Notes under the pieces: generated by a model
Told to the model about the DNA's origin: nothing
The model's input: only the letters and a program-made list of their open reading frames with translations
The model's database searches: none
Program-made: the position numbers and the translations under genes
Source: a virus
DNA: 35,477 nt
Reading direction: 5' to 3' (one strand)
Virus genome (UHGV): UHGV-1967114
Part shown: positions 16,042 to 24,080 of the stretch, piece by piece
Numbering within the stretch: position 1 is the first letter of the stretch
How the letters are laid out: each line of letters begins with the position of its first letter

Positions 16042-19000
16042 ATGCAATCAATCCAATTTAAACGCACACAAACGGCTGGTAAAAAACCAACGCCGGAACA
16101 ATTACAGGTCGGTGAAATCGCTATTCAGATGGCAGACCATGTAATTTACACCAAAGACAAAAATAACGCAGTAGTTCAAATCAGCGTTTCCCCAGAAAGT
16201 CATAATGCTTTAAACACGAAAGTAGACAATAACAAAACTAGCACTGACCGTGTTATTGCTTCCAACAAACAAGAGGCCGCTAATAATCTGGCTAGTGCTA
16301 AAGCTGAACTGAATCAGACTATTACCACGAAAGATACAGCGACCAATAAGCGCATTGATGCTACCAACACCACTGTTAGTAACTTAACCCAGACAGTTAC
16401 GGCAAATAAAACCGATGCCGACACTAAGATCAATAACCTTACGGGGACCGTATCTGCGAATAAGACCGCAATTGAAAGAACCGTTGCCGCAAACAAATCT
16501 GATGCAGATAGCAAACATGCAGCTTTAACGAAAACGGTCACTGACAATAACACCGCGATTAACAACAAGGTTAATACCACTAACACCAACGTTAGCAACT
16601 TAACTAAAACTGTTACTGCAAATAAAACCGATGCAGATAACAAAATTTCTAGCTTAACTAGCACGGTTGCAGCTAACAAGACAGCGATCGAAAAGACTGT
16701 TTCCGACAATAAGAAAGACGCGGATACTAAGATTACCAATCTTACTGGCACTGTTAATAGCAACCATACCGCAATTAACAACAAGGTAGACCAGAATAAA
16801 TCTTCTACTGATGCCGCAATTGCAGCCGCTAACAAACGAATTGATGGTATTGAAGGTAGCAATGATGCTCTTTACATCAAGAAGAATACCAATACTAAGC
16901 ATGGTGGGTATCTGTTAAGCAAGACAGCTAACTATCTGGAAGACCAGACATCACGAGATCTTAACTACTTTGGTGCTTTCCGTACCAATGGTCAAGATGG
17001 ACTCATGGATCTAACTCTTAACGTTCCTCACTCTTCCGGTAAAGCGCACGGTCGCGGATTTACTTTCCGTTATGCATCTGGTGGATCTCGTGTTGAAACC
17101 TATGGTTTTGATAGAGAAGGACAGAAGAACTTTAGCTATAAGATGTATCACGAAGGTGATAAGCCGACTCCTGGCGAGATTGGTGCATACACCAAAGCCG
17201 AAGTTGATAAGATGTTTGTTAAAAACGTCGTTATGTCTGTTCCCAATTCTAGCGAAAACGTATCTGCATATTTCAAATTGGCAACCGCAACAATTCCACA
17301 AAACGGGCGTAGTGTGTTTTTCCGTATTCATGGTGGTAATGGTTACAACGTTACGGCATATGATCAGGTTGACGTAGTAGAAATTCTTCTGCGTAGTGGT
17401 AACGATAGACCTAAAGGTCTTAACGTAATTGCATACCGTAGAAATACAAACAAAGATTTTGAGGTATTTGCTGTCAATACTTCCGGTGATAACTATGATA
17501 TCTACGTGAAATATCAGCGTTATACCGATAACGTTATTGTCGAATATGGGAAATCTGTTTATGTAAGTTTGACGGTTTATGATACGCCGGAAGCCACGTT
17601 AATTAAACCTTCCGTTGGTGTTATCGGTGGTCGCAACGTAACTCTTTTTAATACTGAAAATAAACGTGGTGTGTTAAGTTTTGATGATAACACACAAAAC
17701 AGCTATGACATTGTTCATCTAAGTAATGATAAAGGTACTGGACGGAAATATATTCGTAAATTCCGTAGCAACTATAACGAAATGGTTTGGCATGAAACCG
17801 TTCAGGGTGCTGTATATCGTCTTGCTACTGGTGCTACAGATTCTACAGAAGTTATTAGAATTGATTCTAATAGTGCAATACCGGGTAATTATAAAGGATA
17901 TGTAATTACTGGTAAAATGGAATTGCACGGTAGTGGTAATGCGATGACTTTACATCGACAGACTGGTCAAGCTGCATATATGGCGTGGTGGGATCGTCGT
18001 GATGGTAAAAACCAACGTAGTGGTTATATCGGTCATGCGGATGGTACTAGTGATGGTTTTGTGTGGCGTAATGATGTTGGTGCTAACTCATTTGATTTGG
18101 AAGGTAGTGGACAAGTAAATTTGACTACAGGAAAAACAAAAATTGTATATACCAATGGTCAATATTATTCCGCTAACGCTGATGCATTCCGTATGATTTA
18201 CGGTAAGTATGGTGCATTCTGGCGAAATGATGGTGGTAAAGTTTATCTGTTGTCTACTGCCGAAAATGATAGATTTGGTGGTTGGAATACATATCGACCT
18301 TTTATCTACGATCTTACTTCCGGTAACGTTCAATTAGGTGGTGATGGAAACGAAGATGTATTAACTCTAGAACGCGCAAGCAAGGCCGCTCGATTCTCTG
18401 GCAACGCTTACATCAAAGGTCAACATTTAACATTTGATGCTGGTGCTGGACAATCCCGCGATTACTTCCGGTTTAACCATTGGGGCGATAGTAATAACGC
18501 TCGCGATAACATCCTACAGATTGAAGACAGTCAGGGTGCACACTTTACCACTGAACGCGCTATGGGTACTGGCAATATCACAGCACGTTTTAAAGGCTTC
18601 GTGCGTGTAGAATCCGGTGAGATTGCCTTTGATGCTAATCGTGGATCTGCGTCTCAATTTACCTTACATACATGGGGTAACGAGCAACGCAAACAGGTTT
18701 TTGAATGTAAGGATGCTACTAGTTATCATTGGTATACCGAACGTACAAACGGTGGAACTGGTCCTATCCTGTTCTCTGTTGCTGGTACATTAAAAACTGC
18801 GAGCAATATACAGGTTGGCGGTGCTGATATTGAGTTTCGTCGCAGTGGTAATAAGCATTTATGGTTTAGAGATCCGAACGGTTTAGAATTAGGTTTGATG
18901 TACTGCGATGATGCTGGTGTTATCCGCTTCCGTGGTCAGAAACAAGGTCAAACTTGGAAACTTGCTGATAAAATGATTCATCTTGAGGCGGGGACTGTCG

Positions 19001-19644
19001 GCGGGTCTGATAAAGGTTTGATTCGTGGTAATGTTGCTGGTGGTAGCTGGGCTAGCTGGCGTGATCGTTCTGCCGGAATCCTCGTAGACTGTCCGAACTC
19101 AACCGATTCCGCTCATAACATCTGGAAAGCGACTCATTGGGGAAAATATCATATTGCGGCAATGGGTGTGCATGTTCCTAGTGGTACTATTACCAATGCT
19201 TTAGCTCGCCTAAACGTTCACGACGCCAACTTTGACTTTAACGCTGCGGGTGATTTTAGCGCAGGTCGTAACGGTAGCTTTAACGATGTTTACATTCGCT
19301 CTGACTCCCGTTTGAAGATTAACAAGGAAGAATTACAGGACGGTGCATTAGAGAAAGTAAACTCACTGAAAGTCTACACCTACGATAAAGTTAAATCTCT
19401 TTCCGATGACACGGTGATTAAACGCGAAGTAGGTATTATTGCTCAGGATCTGGAAAAAGTATTGCCGGAAGCAGTAGGTATTCAATCCACAGAAGATCCA
19501 GAACAACCGGAAGCAATCAAGACTATTTCTAACTCTGCTGTTAATGCCTTGATTATTAAAGCTATGCAGGAAATGGACGCCAAATATAAAACACAGATCG
19601 AAGCATTACAGAAAGAAATTGCCGAACTGAAAGCAACTAAATAA
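16042..19644 (+). CDS. Tail fiber protein (1200 aa) with N-terminal repetitive shaft and C-terminal intramolecular chaperone (peptidase S74-like) domain
   Basis: Repeats TVTANKTDADTKI...; C-terminal YIRSDSRLKINKEELQ...LKVYTYDK matches endosialidase-type chaperone signature (recollection). Confidence 0.75.
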   Translation: MQSIQFKRTQTAGKKPTPEQLQVGEIAIQMADHVIYTKDKNNAVVQISVSPESHNALNTKVDNNKTSTDRVIASNKQEAANNLASAKAELNQTITTKDTATNKRIDATNTTVSNLTQTVTANKTDADTKINNLTGTVSANKTAIERTVAANKSDADSKHAALTKTVTDNNTAINNKVNTTNTNVSNLTKTVTANKTDADNKISSLTSTVAANKTAIEKTVSDNKKDADTKITNLTGTVNSNHTAINNKVDQNKSSTDAAIAAANKRIDGIEGSNDALYIKKNTNTKHGGYLLSKTANYLEDQTSRDLNYFGAFRTNGQDGLMDLTLNVPHSSGKAHGRGFTFRYASGGSRVETYGFDREGQKNFSYKMYHEGDKPTPGEIGAYTKAEVDKMFVKNVVMSVPNSSENVSAYFKLATATIPQNGRSVFFRIHGGNGYNVTAYDQVDVVEILLRSGNDRPKGLNVIAYRRNTNKDFEVFAVNTSGDNYDIYVKYQRYTDNVIVEYGKSVYVSLTVYDTPEATLIKPSVGVIGGRNVTLFNTENKRGVLSFDDNTQNSYDIVHLSNDKGTGRKYIRKFRSNYNEMVWHETVQGAVYRLATGATDSTEVIRIDSNSAIPGNYKGYVITGKMELHGSGNAMTLHRQTGQAAYMAWWDRRDGKNQRSGYIGHADGTSDGFVWRNDVGANSFDLEGSGQVNLTTGKTKIVYTNGQYYSANADAFRMIYGKYGAFWRNDGGKVYLLSTAENDRFGGWNTYRPFIYDLTSGNVQLGGDGNEDVLTLERASKAARFSGNAYIKGQHLTFDAGAGQSRDYFRFNHWGDSNNARDNILQIEDSQGAHFTTERAMGTGNITARFKGFVRVESGEIAFDANRGSASQFTLHTWGNEQRKQVFECKDATSYHWYTERTNGGTGPILFSVAGTLKTASNIQVGGADIEFRRSGNKHLWFRDPNGLELGLMYCDDAGVIRFRGQKQGQTWKLADKMIHLEAGTVGGSDKGLIRGNVAGGSWASWRDRSAGILVDCPNSTDSAHNIWKATHWGKYHIAAMGVHVPSGTITNALARLNVHDANFDFNAAGDFSAGRNGSFNDVYIRSDSRLKINKEELQDGALEKVNSLKVYTYDKVKSLSDDTVIKREVGIIAQDLEKVLPEAVGIQSTEDPEQPEAIKTISNSAVNALIIKAMQEMDAKYKTQIEALQKEIAELKATK
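16366..16797 (+). repeat. In-gene tandem coding repeats (two ~216-nt units with ~33-nt subrepeats) in tail fiber shaft
   Basis: Near-identical stretch ACTGTTACTGCAAATAAAACCGATGC at ~16390 and ~16611; explains spurious minus ORF 16314..16862. Confidence 0.6.
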
Positions 19645-19701: not shown

Positions 19702-20175
19702 ATGTCTCAGCAATTTAAAGATATTTTTACTGGTGGTCTGGTAAGTATGTTCTATCACGCCGATACCACTAACACCAATCTTGCACATGAAAGCTATGAA
19801 GAAATTAAAGAGTGTGCTGGTTTTCCTGAAACTGGTATCGAGCGCGGCACTGTAGAAGTTAAATCCTTCTCTTCTCAGTATAACCGTAAGCTGGTAGGTA
19901 AACTGAACGTTCCTGATCTGACTCTGACCGTTAACTACATTCCTGGTGATGCGGTACACGAGAAGCTCATTAAAGCTGCCGAAGACGGTACTCGAATTCA
20001 GATTAAGATTGAATACTATGTAGATGCAGCAAAACAGACTGGTATTCGCACAGCTTTCAACGGCTTCATCTCTAAAGTTGCTATGAACGGTGGCGATGAA
20101 GAAGTGGTAACGAAAGAGTTTACCTTTGCTGTTGATGGTGCTCCGCTGAAACAGCAAATCTTCACTGCCGGATGA
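19702..20175 (+). CDS. Major tail tube protein (lambda gpV-like N-domain)
   Basis: Pattern PGD...L....EDGT...I......F.GF......G..EVVT..F...VDG resembles gpV; RBS TAAGGGGTAA; position upstream of chaperones and tape measure. Confidence 0.7.
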   Translation: MSQQFKDIFTGGLVSMFYHADTTNTNLAHESYEEIKECAGFPETGIERGTVEVKSFSSQYNRKLVGKLNVPDLTLTVNYIPGDAVHEKLIKAAEDGTRIQIKIEYYVDAAKQTGIRTAFNGFISKVAMNGGDEEVVTKEFTFAVDGAPLKQQIFTAG

Positions 20176-20301: not shown

Positions 20302-20306
20302 TTTTA

Positions 20307-20336
20307 AGCCCTGCCTTAATGGTGGGGCTTTTTTAT
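20307..20336 (+). terminator. Intrinsic terminator (AGCCCTGCC-TTAAT-GGTGGGGCT + T6)
   Basis: Paralogous copy of terminator at 14368..14397. Confidence 0.75.
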
Positions 20337-20349
20337 TGGAGTAATCAAA

Positions 20350-20856
20350 ATGGCAAATGTCGTTAAAGTTCCTGGCTGGATCGGGTCATCTGCTGTATCG
20401 GTGACGGGTAAGCGATGGATGAAAGAAGCATTAACAGCTTTAAAAGTTCCGGCTCCGCGTAATATGTCGGCAATGGCTGGTCGTGGTATGGATACGGTTG
20501 TAGCTACTGCATCGTGGTCTACTTCATTGGGTAATAACTGGGGTGTAACTGCTTCAAACTATCCTGTTTCCGGTATGCAAAGCAAAGGATCTATGGAGAA
20601 CCCCGAAAACGTGGGCGTAGGGCGTCTGGTTGGCGTTATCGTTGGTCAATTCAATGGCGGTACTCCTACTATGGCTGTATATCTCCAGAACGGTAGAGCG
20701 GGGAATATAACCGTTAATTTGGGTGGTGCTGCTGTCACTGTTCCTTATAACAGTATGCAAAGTGGTTTTCATTACTATTGGTTAAGCAATCCTCCGGCTG
20801 CTTTCCTAACAAATATTAAGAAAACTGGCACTAAGCAGACTTTGAAAATCTCTTAA
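20350..20856 (+). CDS. Hypothetical Gly/Ser/Thr-rich protein inserted between tail tube terminator and tail chaperone genes
   Basis: 168-aa ORF with RBS GGAG; no lambda counterpart at this position. Confidence 0.5.
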   Translation: MANVVKVPGWIGSSAVSVTGKRWMKEALTALKVPAPRNMSAMAGRGMDTVVATASWSTSLGNNWGVTASNYPVSGMQSKGSMENPENVGVGRLVGVIVGQFNGGTPTMAVYLQNGRAGNITVNLGGAAVTVPYNSMQSGFHYYWLSNPPAAFLTNIKKTGTKQTLKIS

Positions 20857-20901: not shown

Positions 20902-21210
20902 ATGAATCTGAATGAAATGCTGAAAGCTCTTTCTCCGAAACGTGAATCTTTAACCCTCGGCGGATTTACGTTCTATGCTCGCCCTATGTCGGTGCAAGAA
21001 TTTAATGAACATGTTTTCAATACTGATAAAAAAGACCGCGATGAACGCTCTATTCTTCGTTGTATTGAAGATGAAGACGGTAAGCCAGTATTTGAATCTA
21101 TTGAACAAGTTAAGGCACTGTATACTAGCGTCCGCAGCGAATTAATCGGCTTAGTTGCTCAAGCATCATTGATGAAAGATGCGGCGGTAATTGAAAACGA
21201 GGTAAAGTAA
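20902..21210 (+). CDS. Tail assembly chaperone (gpG-like by position)
   Basis: 102-aa ORF between tail tube and tape measure genes, overlapped at 3' end by a -1 frame ORF. Confidence 0.55.
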   Translation: MNLNEMLKALSPKRESLTLGGFTFYARPMSVQEFNEHVFNTDKKDRDERSILRCIEDEDGKPVFESIEQVKALYTSVRSELIGLVAQASLMKDAAVIENEVK

Positions 21211-21593
21211 ACCCGCTCTTGAATTTTTATTTTCGGCAAATGATGCGTCGGGGCTTGAGTAAAGATGAGATGGATAATATGCCAATTACGCTATTTTGGG
21301 CGTTGCATATATTCGATACATATCTTGAACCACAAAGCCCCCTATATCAAGATGCGCGACATGCACAGTCGATGTATTACATGCACGTTACATCTCCTAA
21401 CATGACTCGTGAATGGTTGAATAAAATCAATGTTAACCAATTCCGAATGATTAAGGACGACAAGCAATTTAAAACGCAAGAAGAAATAAAAAAAATTGCT
21501 CGTAAGAAAGAGGAAGAACGTAACTCTGCTTTGGTTGATAGTTATTTCGACGCTTCATTATTACAAAAGCTCAAGAGCGGTCAATTGGGGTAA
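21195..21593 (+). CDS. -1 frame extension ORF (gpT-like); probable G-T fusion via programmed -1 frameshift within 21195..21210
   Basis: Frame-0 ORF opens at 21195 (after TGA 21192-21194) and overlaps the last 5 codons of the G-like ORF; ends TAA 21591-21593, 3 nt before tape measure ATG. Confidence 0.5.
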   Translation, partial: KRGKVNPLLNFYFRQMMRRGLSKDEMDNMPITLFWALHIFDTYLEPQSPLYQDARHAQSMYYMHVTSPNMTREWLNKINVNQFRMIKDDKQFKTQEEIKKIARKKEEERNSALVDSYFDASLLQKLKSGQLG

Positions 21594-21596
21594 TTT

Positions 21597-24029
21597 ATGA
21601 CAAAACATATAGTAACAATAGAAGGGGATAATAAAGGTCTAAGGAGAAGTACCAATGAAGCCGCCGACCTTCTCGATAGTTTGTCTGAAAAGGCAAGTGG
21701 TATTGATTTTGGTGGTGGCTTATCTGGTCTGACTGGATCTCTTCGTGGGATCGCTGGCTCTGCTGGTTTGGCTGCTGGTGGTATCGGCTTAGTTGCGACC
21801 GCAGTGGTTGCAGCCGCTAAAGCTGGCGCGGAATACGTTAAACAATATTCAGAAGTATCTAAGGCGACCGGACTCTCGATTGAATCCCTTCAAAGACTGG
21901 AAAAGGAATTTTCTGGTACTGGCCTAACAGTTGAAAAATTCGGTGATATCAACAAAGACACCTTAGATAAGATGGGTGATGCATGGGCTAACGGTGGTGG
22001 TATTGCTGATGACTTAGAATCGGTTGGCCTTAAGTTAGAAAACTATGCTCACTTCATGACTGATCCGCAAGGTGGTATGAAAGCGGCGATCCAAGTGTTC
22101 TATGACATGAAGAAAGCCGGAAAATCAATGGCTGAAATCAAGTTCATGATGGAATCTTTAGCCAGTGATTCAAGTCATATGACCAGCCAGCTTGAGAAAT
22201 ATAATAGTGCTCAAGAGGCGATGATCGCTATTCAGAATCAATCTGTTAACGTCACCGAAGAAAACGCTAAAAAATATGATAAATTTTCTCAAAATATCAA
22301 TAAGCTGGAAAATAACCTGAAAGGTGTCGGCATGACCATTTCTGGTCCTTTGGTTGATAGCTTAAACTGGTTATTTGACTGGTTTAATATTGATTGGGAA
22401 AAGAGTTCTCTATTCAGGGCATTAGATCGACTGAATAAAGAAGGCAAGACCGCAACTGGTGGTATTCTTAACGCCAACCATAAAGACGCTCAAAAGATTA
22501 TTGACAAGTACAATAAAGAAAAGCGTTGGAATAATCTAGCAGATTGGGAAAAGGCCGCGATCCGTGGTGCTGGTGTCGATCCTCGTACTGCTGGCTTTGA
22601 TGTAGAAGGATTTAAGAAACGTTTTGGTGGGTCTTATAAGAAAAATGGTGCTCTGATTGTCGTAGATGCTGGTGAACATCTGACACGCAAGGCAGATCCT
22701 AACACTGATTTAACTCTACCAAATAAACCAGTAAGACCAGAATCATTGGGTAAATCTGGCAACGAGAAGAAAGCCGAGGAAGAAGCACGCAAGAAAGCGG
22801 AAGAGGCAGCTAAAAAGGCTAAGGAAGCCGCAGAAAAAGCACAGAAAGAACGTGAGGATGCAATCAAGCGTCTGAATGCACTTGATGTTAAATTGCAAGG
22901 GCAAGTTGCAGCGTCTATTGCTTCTCAAAACAAGCAGTTAGAAGCCAGCTTGAAAGATTTGGATACTGCTTTAGATCTGGGCTTAATCTCTCAACAAGAC
23001 GCAGCCGCGAAACGCCAATCCTTAATCGATCAGAATACTGAAAACGTATACAAAATGGTCTTAGGTGCTGATCCTGTTGATGCGCTGAATGCTTTAACAC
23101 AATTGCAACAAATCAGGGACAATGAGTTAGAAAGCCATAAACGGTTACTTGATGGTAAGGCTATCTCCTACGATGAATATATGCGTCGTGTGAATGATAC
23201 CAATCAGAATTATAGTCAAATTGGCAATGCTTTACAGGGAATGGATGGTTTTAAAACCAATCAATTAACCAGCGGATTTGATTATCAAGACTCAAATAAT
23301 CCGTTTGCTAAATTTAATGCAATCGATAAAGAGAAATCGGAAGCCGAACAAGATTATAAGACCGATAAACTACTCAAGATTGATGGGATCACCGATCCGG
23401 CTAAACGGATGGAAGCATTAGAAAAACTCAATGAAAACCATCAAAAACGGATGGCTGCAATTGAAAAGAAATATGCTGATGCTCGCCAGTCAATAGCCGA
23501 TGATATGTATGGCGGTTTTGCTGCTGCAATGACTCTCTTCGGGCAGGAAAACACAAAGGCTATGCAGATGGCTTTCAATGCTCATAAGGCATTCTCTATT
23601 GGACAAGCGACGGTGAACATGTGGACGGCTGCTACCGATGCATGGAACGATCCGACCAACGTCACCACAGGTCAAAAAATTGCTGCTGCTGCATTGGCTG
23701 TTTCTCAGAACATGGGGAACATCGCAAACATCAAGTCTACTAACGTTAGCGGTATGGCTCATGATGGTATTGATAACATCCCTCGTGAGGGTACATGGTT
23801 GCTTGATAAGGGTGAACGAGTAGTTGATCAGCGTACTAACGGTGATTTGAAAGACTTCTTATCTGCTCAAAAATCAGGCGGTGGTAACTCTCAGCCGATT
23901 GAAGTTAATGCGCCTTTGAACATTAACGGCAACGTTAATAGCTCAGACAAGATGGTTATGGATGCTATCAAACGTCACGCTAAGTTTGTTGCTCAGGCGA
24001 TAGAAGACGTTCAGCGTCGTAAGATGTAA
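21597..24029 (+). CDS. Tail tape measure protein
   Basis: 810 aa, Gly/Ala-rich hydrophobic N-region, extended coiled-coil-like central region, position after chaperone pair. Confidence 0.8.
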   Translation: MTKHIVTIEGDNKGLRRSTNEAADLLDSLSEKASGIDFGGGLSGLTGSLRGIAGSAGLAAGGIGLVATAVVAAAKAGAEYVKQYSEVSKATGLSIESLQRLEKEFSGTGLTVEKFGDINKDTLDKMGDAWANGGGIADDLESVGLKLENYAHFMTDPQGGMKAAIQVFYDMKKAGKSMAEIKFMMESLASDSSHMTSQLEKYNSAQEAMIAIQNQSVNVTEENAKKYDKFSQNINKLENNLKGVGMTISGPLVDSLNWLFDWFNIDWEKSSLFRALDRLNKEGKTATGGILNANHKDAQKIIDKYNKEKRWNNLADWEKAAIRGAGVDPRTAGFDVEGFKKRFGGSYKKNGALIVVDAGEHLTRKADPNTDLTLPNKPVRPESLGKSGNEKKAEEEARKKAEEAAKKAKEAAEKAQKEREDAIKRLNALDVKLQGQVAASIASQNKQLEASLKDLDTALDLGLISQQDAAAKRQSLIDQNTENVYKMVLGADPVDALNALTQLQQIRDNELESHKRLLDGKAISYDEYMRRVNDTNQNYSQIGNALQGMDGFKTNQLTSGFDYQDSNNPFAKFNAIDKEKSEAEQDYKTDKLLKIDGITDPAKRMEALEKLNENHQKRMAAIEKKYADARQSIADDMYGGFAAAMTLFGQENTKAMQMAFNAHKAFSIGQATVNMWTAATDAWNDPTNVTTGQKIAAAALAVSQNMGNIANIKSTNVSGMAHDGIDNIPREGTWLLDKGERVVDQRTNGDLKDFLSAQKSGGGNSQPIEVNAPLNINGNVNSSDKMVMDAIKRHAKFVAQAIEDVQRRKM

Positions 24030-24034
24030 TTAAA

Positions 24035-24080
24035 AGCCCCCATAGTGATAAATAATCATAAAACTATGGGGGCTTTTTCT
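24035..24080 (+). terminator. Stem-loop/terminator-like structure between tape measure and distal tail genes (AGCCCCCATAG...CTATGGGGGCT + T5); 3' arm contains the RBS of the next gene
   Basis: 11-bp stem, 18-nt loop, TTTTT; GGGGG of stem is the likely SD for ATG 24081. Confidence 0.4.

What the first reader, a model, noticed from the sequence alone, without database searches (positions are those of the whole stretch)
21190..21215. Tail assembly chaperone frameshift must occur within a 16-nt window lacking a canonical slippery heptamer
The -1 frame ORF continuous with 21219..21593 opens only at 21195 (TGA at 21192-21194), while the G-like ORF stops at 21208-21210. A G-T fusion therefore requires a -1 shift within AAACGAGGTAAAGTAA. 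The only plausible site is the P-site Lys codon AAG (21205-21207) slipping back onto AAA (21204-21206) while the A site holds the UAA stop, i.e. stop-codon-stimulated single-tRNA slippage.
Basis: inference. Interest (0 to 1): 0.45.

Follow-up and report, generated by a model that had tools for sequence, protein, structure and literature searches.

The report
Unannotated tail-chaperone frameshift at GUA_AAG
An E. coli prophage almost certainly makes its longer tail assembly chaperone by a -1 ribosomal slip of the lysine tRNA on A_AAG just before the stop codon, which is an ordinary phage trick using a known but less common type of slip site that public annotation has missed.

Summary
The G-like ORF is 20902..21210. 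The -1 frame is closed by TGA at 21192-94 and then open to 21593. The two frames overlap by 16 nt, with no X_XXY_YYZ heptamer.

Fifteen related lineages (E. coli, Salmonella, Edwardsiella, phage DCP80) keep the same -1 arrangement. None has a conserved start codon for T. The stretch between the G stop and the first Met evolves as coding sequence in the -1 frame.

The shift codon is pinned by comparison:
- NNA_AAG is present at the homologous Lys in all 15 lineages.
- It is [G/T]_GTA_AAG in the window's clade.
- Two distant relatives carry canonical heptamers at the same position: A_AAA_AAG and T_TTA_AAG.
- The in-window alternative A_AAC is not conserved.

The "stop-codon-stimulated" part is plausible but unproven. 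Three GUA_AAG lineages have a sense codon (AAA) in place of the stop.

A_AAG tetramer and NNA_AAG hexamer sites are a described class in E. coli. This is a new, unannotated member of a known kind, of modest interest.

The parts
19702..20175 (+). Major tail / tail tube protein gene. This is the upstream landmark of the G-T-TMP cassette.
   Evidence: PHROG phrog_158 major tail protein, E 1.3e-20. Pfam Phage_TTP_11 and TTP_12 give weak hits. PGAP names it 'phage tail protein'.
20902..21210 (+). Tail assembly chaperone G ORF, 102 aa. ATG at 20902, GAGGA Shine-Dalgarno at 20890-94, stop TAA at 21208-10.
21192..21194 (+). TGA that closes the -1 (T) frame upstream. It sets the 5' limit of any productive shift.
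   Evidence: Sequence. A -1-frame stop lies 10-16 nt upstream of the shift codon in 13 of 15 lineages.
21201..21207 (+). Shift site G_GTA_AAG. The functional core is the tetramer A_AAG (21204-07). tRNA-Lys moves from AAG (21205-07) to AAA (21204-06).
   Evidence: NNA_AAG is present at the homologous Lys in 15 of 15 lineages. GTA and AAG are codon-invariant in the 13 lineages of the window's clade. The first base is T in L113. The relatives L115 (A_AAA_AAG) and DCP80 (T_TTA_AAG) have canonical heptamers at the same position.
21208..21210 (+). 0-frame stop UAA directly 3' of the shift codon. It is a possible kinetic stimulator, since it fills the A site when AAG is in the P site.
   Evidence: It is TAA in 9 of the 13 GUA_AAG lineages and TAG in L029. 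It is replaced by AAA in L108, L116 and L117. The stimulatory role is inference.
21207..21593 (+). T segment read in the -1 frame after the shift. It has 128 codons, starting at GTA 21207-09, plus stop TAA 21591-93. The predicted GT product is 102 + 128 = 230 aa.
   Evidence: Codons 21207-21239, upstream of the first Met, change almost only synonymously among lineages. TTG 21219 becomes CTG, TTA or CTA, and ATG 21240 becomes GTG in L110. No Shine-Dalgarno sequence lies before 21219 or 21240.
21597..24029 (+). Tape measure protein gene. This is the downstream landmark.
   Evidence: phrog_13674 tail length tape measure protein, E 2e-62.

Best explanation
This is the G/GT tail assembly chaperone pair of an E. 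coli lambda-like (siphovirus-type) prophage.

Most ribosomes translate G (20902..21210) and terminate at UAA 21208-10, giving the 102-aa chaperone. A minority shift -1 at the last sense codon. The single E. coli tRNA-Lys (mnm5s2UUU), which pairs weakly with AAG, re-pairs with the overlapping AAA (21204-06). Reading then continues with GUA 21207-09 through 21590. The product is a 230-aa G-T fusion, ...IENEVK|VNPLLNFYFRQMMRRGL....

The site works as an NNA_AAG hexanucleotide / A_AAG tetranucleotide motif, not as a tandem X_XXY_YYZ heptamer:
- The P-site or preceding codon GUA does not need to re-pair, because the base before it is G or T among relatives.
- Its decoder is expected to be wobble-prone and so to free the third-position A.

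No RNA structure or conserved internal Shine-Dalgarno sequence is involved. The adjacent stop codon probably raises the yield by leaving tRNA-Lys in the P site opposite a slowly filled A site, but it is not indispensable.

Shown here: the anatomy, the chaperone identity of G, coding constraint on the -1 frame without a start codon, and the positional conservation of NNA_AAG. Inferred: that the fusion is made, its level, and the kinetic route. My estimate for the route is about 50% P-site slip at the stop, 40% A-site or translocation-coupled slip, and 10% both or other.
For: Anatomy.

Gene context (tube - G - T - tape measure - distal tail protein).

Frame arrangement: all 15 lineages keep T in the -1 frame.

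No independent start for T:
- The 11 codons between the shift and the first Met are conserved as protein (V N P L L x F Y F R Q). Substitutions are nearly all synonymous: CTC/CTT, TTG/CTG/TTA/CTA, TTT/TTC, TAT/TAC, CGG/CGC/CGT/AGG, CAA/CAG.
- The possible starts TTG 21219 and ATG 21240 are not conserved.

Shift site:
- GTA_AAG is invariant in 13 lineages. Only 2 of 35 invariant residues with at least 3-fold codon degeneracy keep one codon, and one of them is this Val.
- AAG is the minority Lys codon, 84 against 161 AAA.
- Gapless alignment places A_AAA_AAG (L115) and T_TTA_AAG (DCP80) at the same Lys.

No stimulatory RNA: fold z-score +0.54, RNAalifold -4.9 kcal/mol, no Rfam hit.

Literature:
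- A_AA.G is far the best tetramer in E. coli, and 87 IS elements use tetramers (PMC4066793).
- A_CGA_AAG (cdd) and G_CGA_AAG (IS1222) are known cases, and NNA_AAG efficiency depends on the wobble propensity of the 5' codon's tRNA (PMC5009743; PMC10861913).
- One-tRNA P-site slippage with a vacant A site needs no structure (PMC6771820).
Against: - No protein or ribosome-profiling data exist. The fusion is inferred.
- In reporter assays the A_AAG tetramer without a stimulator was barely above background, about 0.15% against 0.11% (PMC4066793). No stimulator other than the stop was found here, so the yield could be very low.
- UAA is read by both release factors and is not a classic slow "shifty" stop.
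- Three lineages lack the adjacent stop.
- In the Edwardsiella lineage an ATG in the T frame overlaps the G stop (TGATG). T alone could be made there by coupling.
- The lineages are related, so the conservation counts are not independent events.
- The wobble-prone status of tRNA-Val(cmo5UAC) on GUA rests on my own recall of Licznar et al. 2003. That paper could not be read here.
Confidence: 0.85

Rival explanations
1. This is the first reader's specific route, nested within the best explanation rather than exclusive of it. The shift happens only after AAG has reached the P site, while UAA occupies the A site. The stop codon is then the required stimulator (shifty-stop or hungry-type single-tRNA slippage).
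For: - The stop is directly 3' of AAG in 10 of 13 GUA_AAG lineages. The two relatives with canonical heptamers have it 6 and 10 sense codons away, which looks like compensation.
- The third position of the -1-frame Val codon, which is the middle A of TAA, never changes to G. TGA would keep both a stop and Val.
- No RNA structure or conserved Shine-Dalgarno sequence is available as a stimulator.
- P-site slippage with an unfilled A site needs no structure (PMC6771820).
Against: - L108/L065, L116 and L117 keep GUA_AAG but have AAA after it, with the stop 4 codons later.
- UAA-A is not a known poor termination context (own knowledge).
- The hungry route is described as very slow, and release factors would compete with it.
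- The ancestral-type heptamers in relatives place AAG in the A site.
Confidence: 0.45
2. T is made as a separate protein by its own initiation at TTG 21219, ATG 21240 or ATG 21279 as annotated by PGAP, or by termination-reinitiation after the G stop. There is no frameshift.
For: - Gene callers and PGAP annotate T alone from 21240 or 21279.
- No natural in-frame G-T fusion was found among 33 G and 35 T homologue clusters.
- The Edwardsiella lineage has a TGATG overlap.
Against: - 21207-21239 is under protein-coding constraint in the -1 frame upstream of every candidate start.
- TTG 21219 is CTG, TTA or CTA in relatives. ATG 21240 is GTG in L110 and absent in L116/L117-type sequences.
- No Shine-Dalgarno sequence precedes any of them.
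- In DCP80 and L115, homology in the T frame runs up to the AAG inside the G ORF.
Confidence: 0.06
3. The shift occurs elsewhere in the 16-nt overlap, at A_AAC (21195-98, tRNA-Asn AAC to AAA), giving ...IEN|RGKVNPLL....
For: A_AAC is the only other Z_ZZN tetramer in the overlap, and it lies just after the -1-frame TGA.
Against: - It is absent from L031/L032, L109, L111, L112, L114, L116, L117, L115 and DCP80.
- A_AAC was not among the tetramers clearly above background in E. coli (hierarchy in PMC4066793).
- E. coli tRNA-Asn is reported to support only double slippage (PMC5009743).
Confidence: 0.03
4. The frame break is a decayed or erroneous junction (a pseudogene or a sequencing indel), or the shift is made by RNA polymerase slippage rather than by the ribosome.
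For: None specific. The prophage's activity is unknown.
Against: - The same -1 offset is present in 15 lineages and in three 100%-identical complete E. coli genomes.
- Both frames show purifying selection.
- The A run is only 3 nt, far below what transcriptional slippage needs (established knowledge).
Confidence: 0.02

Closest known systems
Phage lambda gpG/gpGT (and HK97-type) tail assembly chaperone -1 frameshift, G_GGA_AAG (Levin 1993; Xu, Hendrix & Duda 2004, as cited in PMC5009743)
   Same: - The gene position is the same, between the tail tube gene and the tape measure gene.
- A short G ORF is followed by a T ORF in the -1 frame with no start of its own.
- The shift is near the end of G and the A-site codon is AAG.
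- No RNA stimulator is evident.
- The heptamer differs from lambda's by one base (G_GUA_AAG against G_GGA_AAG).
   Different: - The P-site codon GUA cannot re-pair cognately in the -1 frame (GGU, or UGU in L113), so the site is not a tandem-slippage heptamer.
- The 0-frame stop follows the shift codon immediately.
- The T segment matches no Pfam or PHROG family.
- Nothing has been tested experimentally.
NNA_AAG hexanucleotide / A_AAG tetranucleotide -1 sites in bacteria: IS3-family elements, IS1222 (G_CGA_AAG), B. subtilis cdd (A_CGA_AAG); Licznar 2003, Sharma 2014
   Same: - tRNA-Lys makes a single slip from AAG to AAA.
- The preceding NNA codon supplies only its third-position A.
- The host has one tRNA-Lys.
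- cdd also shifts close to the end of its ORF (own recall).
   Different: - The IS examples rely on a downstream pseudoknot or hairpin, and cdd on an upstream Shine-Dalgarno-like sequence (own recall). Neither was found or conserved here.
- Here the motif sits directly against the stop codon and serves a phage structural-assembly gene.
Stop- or hungry-codon-assisted P-site slippage ("shifty stops", Weiss 1987; one-tRNA route on dnaX and HIV-1, PMC6771820)
   Same: A slippery codon would sit in the P site with a slowly filled A site. No RNA structure is needed.
   Different: - Well-documented programmed cases at stops are mostly +1 (prfB, antizyme, pheL; PMC3082878).
- A -1 programmed case at a stop in a tail chaperone gene was not found in the papers searched.
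- The role of the stop is not demonstrated here, and three lineages do without it.

Membership tests
Phage tail assembly chaperone G/GT programmed -1 frameshift (lambda gpG/gpGT type) | The gene pair lies between the major tail/tube gene and the tape measure gene | tested here: met
   Tube gene 19702..20175 (phrog_158, E 1.3e-20). Tape measure gene 21597..24029 (phrog_13674, E 2e-62). Distal tail protein gene at 24045... A gp38-like adhesin ORF is intercalated between the tube gene and G.
Phage tail assembly chaperone G/GT programmed -1 frameshift (lambda gpG/gpGT type) | The upstream ORF is a tail assembly chaperone by sequence or fold | tested here: met
Phage tail assembly chaperone G/GT programmed -1 frameshift (lambda gpG/gpGT type) | The downstream ORF overlaps the end of G in the -1 frame and has no start codon or ribosome-binding site of its own | tested here: met
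   16-nt overlap. The candidate starts are not conserved, and coding constraint extends upstream of them.
Phage tail assembly chaperone G/GT programmed -1 frameshift (lambda gpG/gpGT type) | A slippery sequence in the overlap is conserved among relatives | tested here: met
   NNA_AAG at the homologous Lys in 15 of 15 lineages. Synonymous invariance of GTA and AAG.
Phage tail assembly chaperone G/GT programmed -1 frameshift (lambda gpG/gpGT type) | A canonical X_XXY_YYZ heptamer (usual in the family, not obligatory) | tested here: not met
   The window has G_GTA_AAG and L113 has T_GTA_AAG. The feature is met only in the distant relatives L115 (A_AAA_AAG) and DCP80 (T_TTA_AAG).
Phage tail assembly chaperone G/GT programmed -1 frameshift (lambda gpG/gpGT type) | Both G and a minor GT fusion are produced, and both are needed for tail assembly | not testable with these tools
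   This needs protein analysis and genetics.
A_AAG tetranucleotide / NNA_AAG hexanucleotide -1 frameshift sites of bacteria | The 0-frame reads NNA_AAG, so that tRNA-Lys can re-pair with AAA in the -1 frame | tested here: met
   GTA_AAG at 21202-07.
A_AAG tetranucleotide / NNA_AAG hexanucleotide -1 frameshift sites of bacteria | The host decodes AAA and AAG with a single tRNA-Lys (mnm5s2UUU) | not tested
   The host is E. coli (100% identical prophages). E. coli has one tRNA-Lys according to PMC5009743.
A_AAG tetranucleotide / NNA_AAG hexanucleotide -1 frameshift sites of bacteria | The 5' NNA codon is read by a wobble-prone tRNA | not tested
   GUA is read by tRNA-Val(cmo5UAC) (own knowledge). 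The rule is stated in PMC5009743 and PMC10861913. The original paper is not held in the library.
A_AAG tetranucleotide / NNA_AAG hexanucleotide -1 frameshift sites of bacteria | A flanking stimulator: a downstream hairpin or pseudoknot, or an upstream Shine-Dalgarno-like sequence 10-14 nt away | tested here: not met
   The downstream fold is no better than shuffled sequence (z +0.54). The consensus structure is -4.9 kcal/mol with little covariation. GAGG abuts the site but is not conserved; it is TCG, GCG or GAT in relatives. An AAGGT about 12 nt upstream occurs in only some lineages.
Stop-codon-assisted (shifty-stop) P-site slippage | The 0-frame stop is immediately 3' of the slippery codon | tested here: met
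   UAA at 21208-10. This holds in 10 of the 13 GUA_AAG lineages but not in L108, L116 or L117.
Stop-codon-assisted (shifty-stop) P-site slippage | Frameshift level depends on the stop codon and on release-factor activity | not testable with these tools
   This needs reporter mutagenesis and release-factor titration.

The most novel reading that the evidence does not exclude
In this prophage clade the canonical heptamer of the ancestral G-T site (A_AAA_AAG or U_UUA_AAG in distant relatives) has decayed to GUA_AAG. The loss was compensated by moving the G stop codon directly against the shift codon. Termination and -1 P-site slippage of tRNA-Lys would then compete at a single ribosomal state, and release-factor activity would set the G:GT ratio. 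That would be a programmed -1 "shifty stop" in a phage structural gene, with no RNA stimulator.
Probability: 0.35. Interest if true: 0.5.

Novelty: new member of a known kind. Interest (0 to 1): 0.3.

Why it matters
- **Annotation.** The frameshift is unannotated in every public record seen. PGAP calls G \"hypothetical\" or even \"cytochrome\", and truncates T to start at 21279 or 21240. The finding therefore corrects the annotation of a prophage family found in about 1% of complete E. coli genomes, and in Salmonella and Edwardsiella.
- **Recoding.** The family offers a natural allelic series at one homologous site: A_AAA_AAG, U_UUA_AAG, G/U_GUA_AAG+UAA, and GUA_AAG_AAA. This would be a convenient system to measure how much a heptamer's P-site half and an adjacent stop each contribute to -1 frameshifting in E. 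coli without RNA stimulators.
- **Limits.** It does not change what is known about tail assembly chaperones or about frameshifting.

Tried and rejected
- **Megablast of the G-T region against INPHARED phages:** no match. tblastn found only phage DCP80.
- **Profile-guided scan of species-representative genomes:** no confirmed relative.
- **Exact 17-mer scan of the same collection:** 40 loci. Most are in phyla unrelated to the host, and about 70 chance matches are expected from the collection size. The only enterobacterial hit, Xenorhabdus L068, lies at the end of an unrelated ORF.
- **Downstream stimulatory RNA:** rejected. The single-sequence fold is no better than shuffles, and the consensus fold is weak.
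- **Known RNA families:** none. One sub-threshold snoRNA hit is chance.
- **Promoter or terminator between G and T:** none.
- **Internal Shine-Dalgarno stimulator:** GAGG at 21199-202 abuts the site, which is too close for -1 stimulation, and it is not conserved. Rejected.
- **Tandem slippage on G_GUA_AAG with P-site re-pairing:** disfavoured, because L113 has T at heptamer position 1.
- **A_AAC at 21195-98:** rejected for lack of conservation.
- **A_AAA at 5995-98 in DCP80:** this was my first guess for that phage. It was replaced by T_TTA_AAG at 5977-83, which aligns without gaps to the window's junction.
- **Natural in-frame G-T fusions among homologues:** none found.
- **PDB sequence search with a G profile:** only E 0.47 to 2ob9. 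The fold comparison was needed to establish the match.
- **Structure prediction with my own alignment of loci:** It was redone with database homologues.
- **Licznar et al. 2003:** could not be read.
- **Literature search for GUA_AAG:** nothing relevant.

Full report
**1. The observation**

The G-like ORF runs from 20902 to 21210 and ends ...ATT GAA AAC GAG GTA AAG TAA. The frame one base behind it contains TGA at 21192-94 and is then open to TAA at 21591-93. A script that walks both frames gives an overlap of exactly 16 nt, AAACGAGGTAAAGTAA.

No X_XXY_YYZ heptamer is present. The nearest is G_GTA_AAG (21201-07), one base away from lambda's G_GGA_AAG. The overlap contains two Z_ZZN tetramers, A_AAC (21195-98) and A_AAG (21204-07).

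**2. What the genes are**

- The ORF at 19702..20175 is a major tail/tube protein (phrog_158, E 1.3e-20; weak Pfam Phage_TTP_11/12).
- The ORF at 21597..24029 is a tape measure protein (phrog_13674, E 2e-62).
- The ORF at 24045.. is a distal tail protein.
- G matches the tail assembly chaperone family phrog_344 (E 1.8e-7). It matches Pfam Phage_TAC_13 below the gathering score, as do 8 of 10 homologues.
- The T segment matches no Pfam or PHROG family.

The locus is the classical tube - G - T - tape measure cassette.

**3. Where it comes from**

There is no near-identical DNA among deposited phages. The stretch is 100% identical to chromosomal prophages of E. coli PI7 and 24AR0357, and 99.9% identical to one in 39EVA. 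Related copies (about 82% identity) occur in 50 of 5,426 complete E. coli genomes.

PGAP annotates G as "hypothetical" and elsewhere as "cytochrome". It annotates T as a truncated ORF starting at ATG 21279. No ribosomal slippage is annotated.

**4. Relatives**

I gathered relatives from several sources:
- IMG/VR gave 33 loci.
- Protein searches gave 35 T clusters and 33 G clusters from E. coli, Shigella, Salmonella, Edwardsiella tarda and Proteus columbae. I fetched ten further contigs from these.
- The only deposited phage with a relative is Escherichia phage DCP80, with 30-40% protein identity.

All G homologues are 80-106 aa and all T homologues are 98-123 aa. No natural in-frame fusion exists in these searches. 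In every locus examined, T is in the -1 frame relative to G.

**5. T has no start of its own**

The 11 codons between the G stop and the first Met read V N P L L x F Y F R Q in all 13 lineages of the window's clade. The nucleotide differences there are almost all synonymous in the -1 frame: CTC/CTT, TTG/CTG/TTA/CTA, TTT/TTC, TAT/TAC, CGG/CGC/CGT/AGG, CAA/CAG.

The only in-frame start-like codon in the window before 21240, TTG 21219, is CTG, TTA or CTA in relatives. ATG 21240 is GTG in L110. No purine-rich Shine-Dalgarno sequence precedes either. In DCP80 and L115 the T-frame homology continues into the G ORF up to the shift codon.

This stretch is therefore translated by ribosomes that arrive from G. 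That requires a -1 shift.

**6. Where the shift occurs**

GTA_AAG is present in all 13 lineages of the clade. The upstream sequence differs among them:
- GAG, TCG, GCG or GAT precedes GTA.
- The base before GTA is T in L113.
- A_AAC is missing from most lineages.

Codon analysis used 13 fusion sequences that are 59-84% identical to the window's protein. Among 71 invariant residues with degenerate codons, only 9 keep a single codon. Among the 35 with at least 3-fold degeneracy, only two do so: the Val GTA of the site and a Pro three codons downstream. AAG is invariant although AAA is the commoner Lys codon in these genes, 161 against 84.

Two more distant relatives settle the position:
- L115 reads CTC GAA AAA AAG TCC..., which contains A_AAA_AAG.
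- DCP80 reads AGT TTA AAG CCG..., which contains T_TTA_AAG.

Both are canonical heptamers. With the shift placed there, their G-T fusions align without gaps to the window's junction...EIEQSLK|ADWVKRFRYRLILRGL against ...VIENEVK|VNPLLNFYFRQMMRRGL.

**7. How it most likely works**

A_AAG is by far the most shift-prone tetramer in E. coli, and tetramers are used by 87 IS1/IS3 elements (PMC4066793). A_CGA_AAG in B. subtilis cdd and G_CGA_AAG in IS1222 are established cases. On NNA_AAG the yield depends on how readily the tRNA on the 5' codon frees its third base (PMC5009743; PMC10861913). From my own knowledge, GUA is read by tRNA-Val(cmo5UAC), a tRNA with extended wobble.

The variable base at heptamer position 1 argues that re-pairing of the Val tRNA is not needed.

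I found no stimulatory RNA:
- The 93 nt downstream fold no better than shuffled sequence (z +0.54).
- The consensus fold of eight lineages is -4.9 kcal/mol.
- No Rfam family matches.
- The adjacent GAGG is not conserved.

Without stimulators the tetramer was barely above background in reporters. One-tRNA P-site slippage with an unfilled A site needs no structure (PMC6771820).

Evidence in favour of the stop-codon idea:
- Ten of 13 GUA_AAG lineages have the stop directly after AAG.
- The two canonical-heptamer relatives have it 6 and 10 codons away.
- The middle A of TAA never varies, although TGA would preserve both reading frames.

Evidence against it being essential:
- L108/L065 (Edwardsiella), L116 (Salmonella) and L117 have GTA AAG AAA ACC...TGA. 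In these the stop has become AAA.
- That change creates A_AAG_AAA, a sequence reported as slippery in lambda cI.

Both routes give the same protein, so sequence alone cannot separate them.

**8. Comparison with what is known, and novelty**

The locus passes every testable criterion of the lambda-type G/GT system except possession of a canonical heptamer, which is usual but not obligatory. Its slip site belongs to the described A_AAG / NNA_AAG class but lacks that class's usual RNA or Shine-Dalgarno stimulator. Programmed shifts at a stop codon are well known in the +1 direction. I did not find a described -1 case in a tail chaperone gene in the papers searched, but the role of the stop here is unproven.

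I therefore rate it a new, unannotated member of a known kind. There is a 0.35 chance that it represents a stop-assisted variant, which would be moderately interesting.

The practical value is twofold: corrected annotation, and a natural series of site variants suited to reporter experiments.

Noticed in passing
window 16042..19644 and 20350..20856; hairpin 20306..20330: The tail fibre gene is about 80% identical at the DNA level, over about 2.6 kb, to the gp37 distal fibre of RB49-like T-even phages. A gp38_N-type adhesin ORF (phrog_1121, E 1.7e-34) sits between the tube gene and G, preceded by a terminator-like hairpin. This looks like a T-even fibre/adhesin cassette inside a lambda-like tail module. 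In relatives L108 and L115 the order is fibre - gp38 - tube - G - T instead.
   Followed up: partly
window 21192..21194; the same relative position in L009, L110, L111, L114-L117 and L001: A -1-frame stop lies only 10-16 nt upstream of the shift codon in 13 of 15 lineages, including the distant L115 and DCP80. It might limit aberrant fusions from premature slips, or it may simply follow from the conserved (I/V)-E residues.
   Followed up: no
L108 2499..2503 and L065 3017..3021: In the Edwardsiella lineage the G stop moved four codons downstream and overlaps an ATG in the T frame (TGATG). This is a translational-coupling-like arrangement that could also yield free T protein.
   Followed up: no
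G homologues P0037, P0040, P0042-P0063; RefSeq annotation in H23-H25: The tail assembly chaperone G of this prophage family is widely named "cytochrome" in NCBI records. This appears to be a propagated misannotation.
   Followed up: no
L001 (PQ671644.1, Escherichia phage DCP80, 8118..20366): DCP80 is filed under Straboviridae/Tevenvirinae (Gaprivervirus) at 141 kb, yet carries a lambda-like tube / chaperone G-T / tape measure module with all genes "hypothetical". Either the taxonomy or the assembly is odd. Its G-T frameshift (T_TTA_AAG at locus 5977-83) is also unannotated.
   Followed up: partly
window 21256..21285: A 30-nt stretch of T (TGAGTAAAGATGAGATGGATAATATGCCAA, encoding LSKDEMDNMP) is almost invariant at the nucleotide level, including wobble positions, within the window's clade. 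It did not take part in any supported RNA structure.
   Followed up: partly
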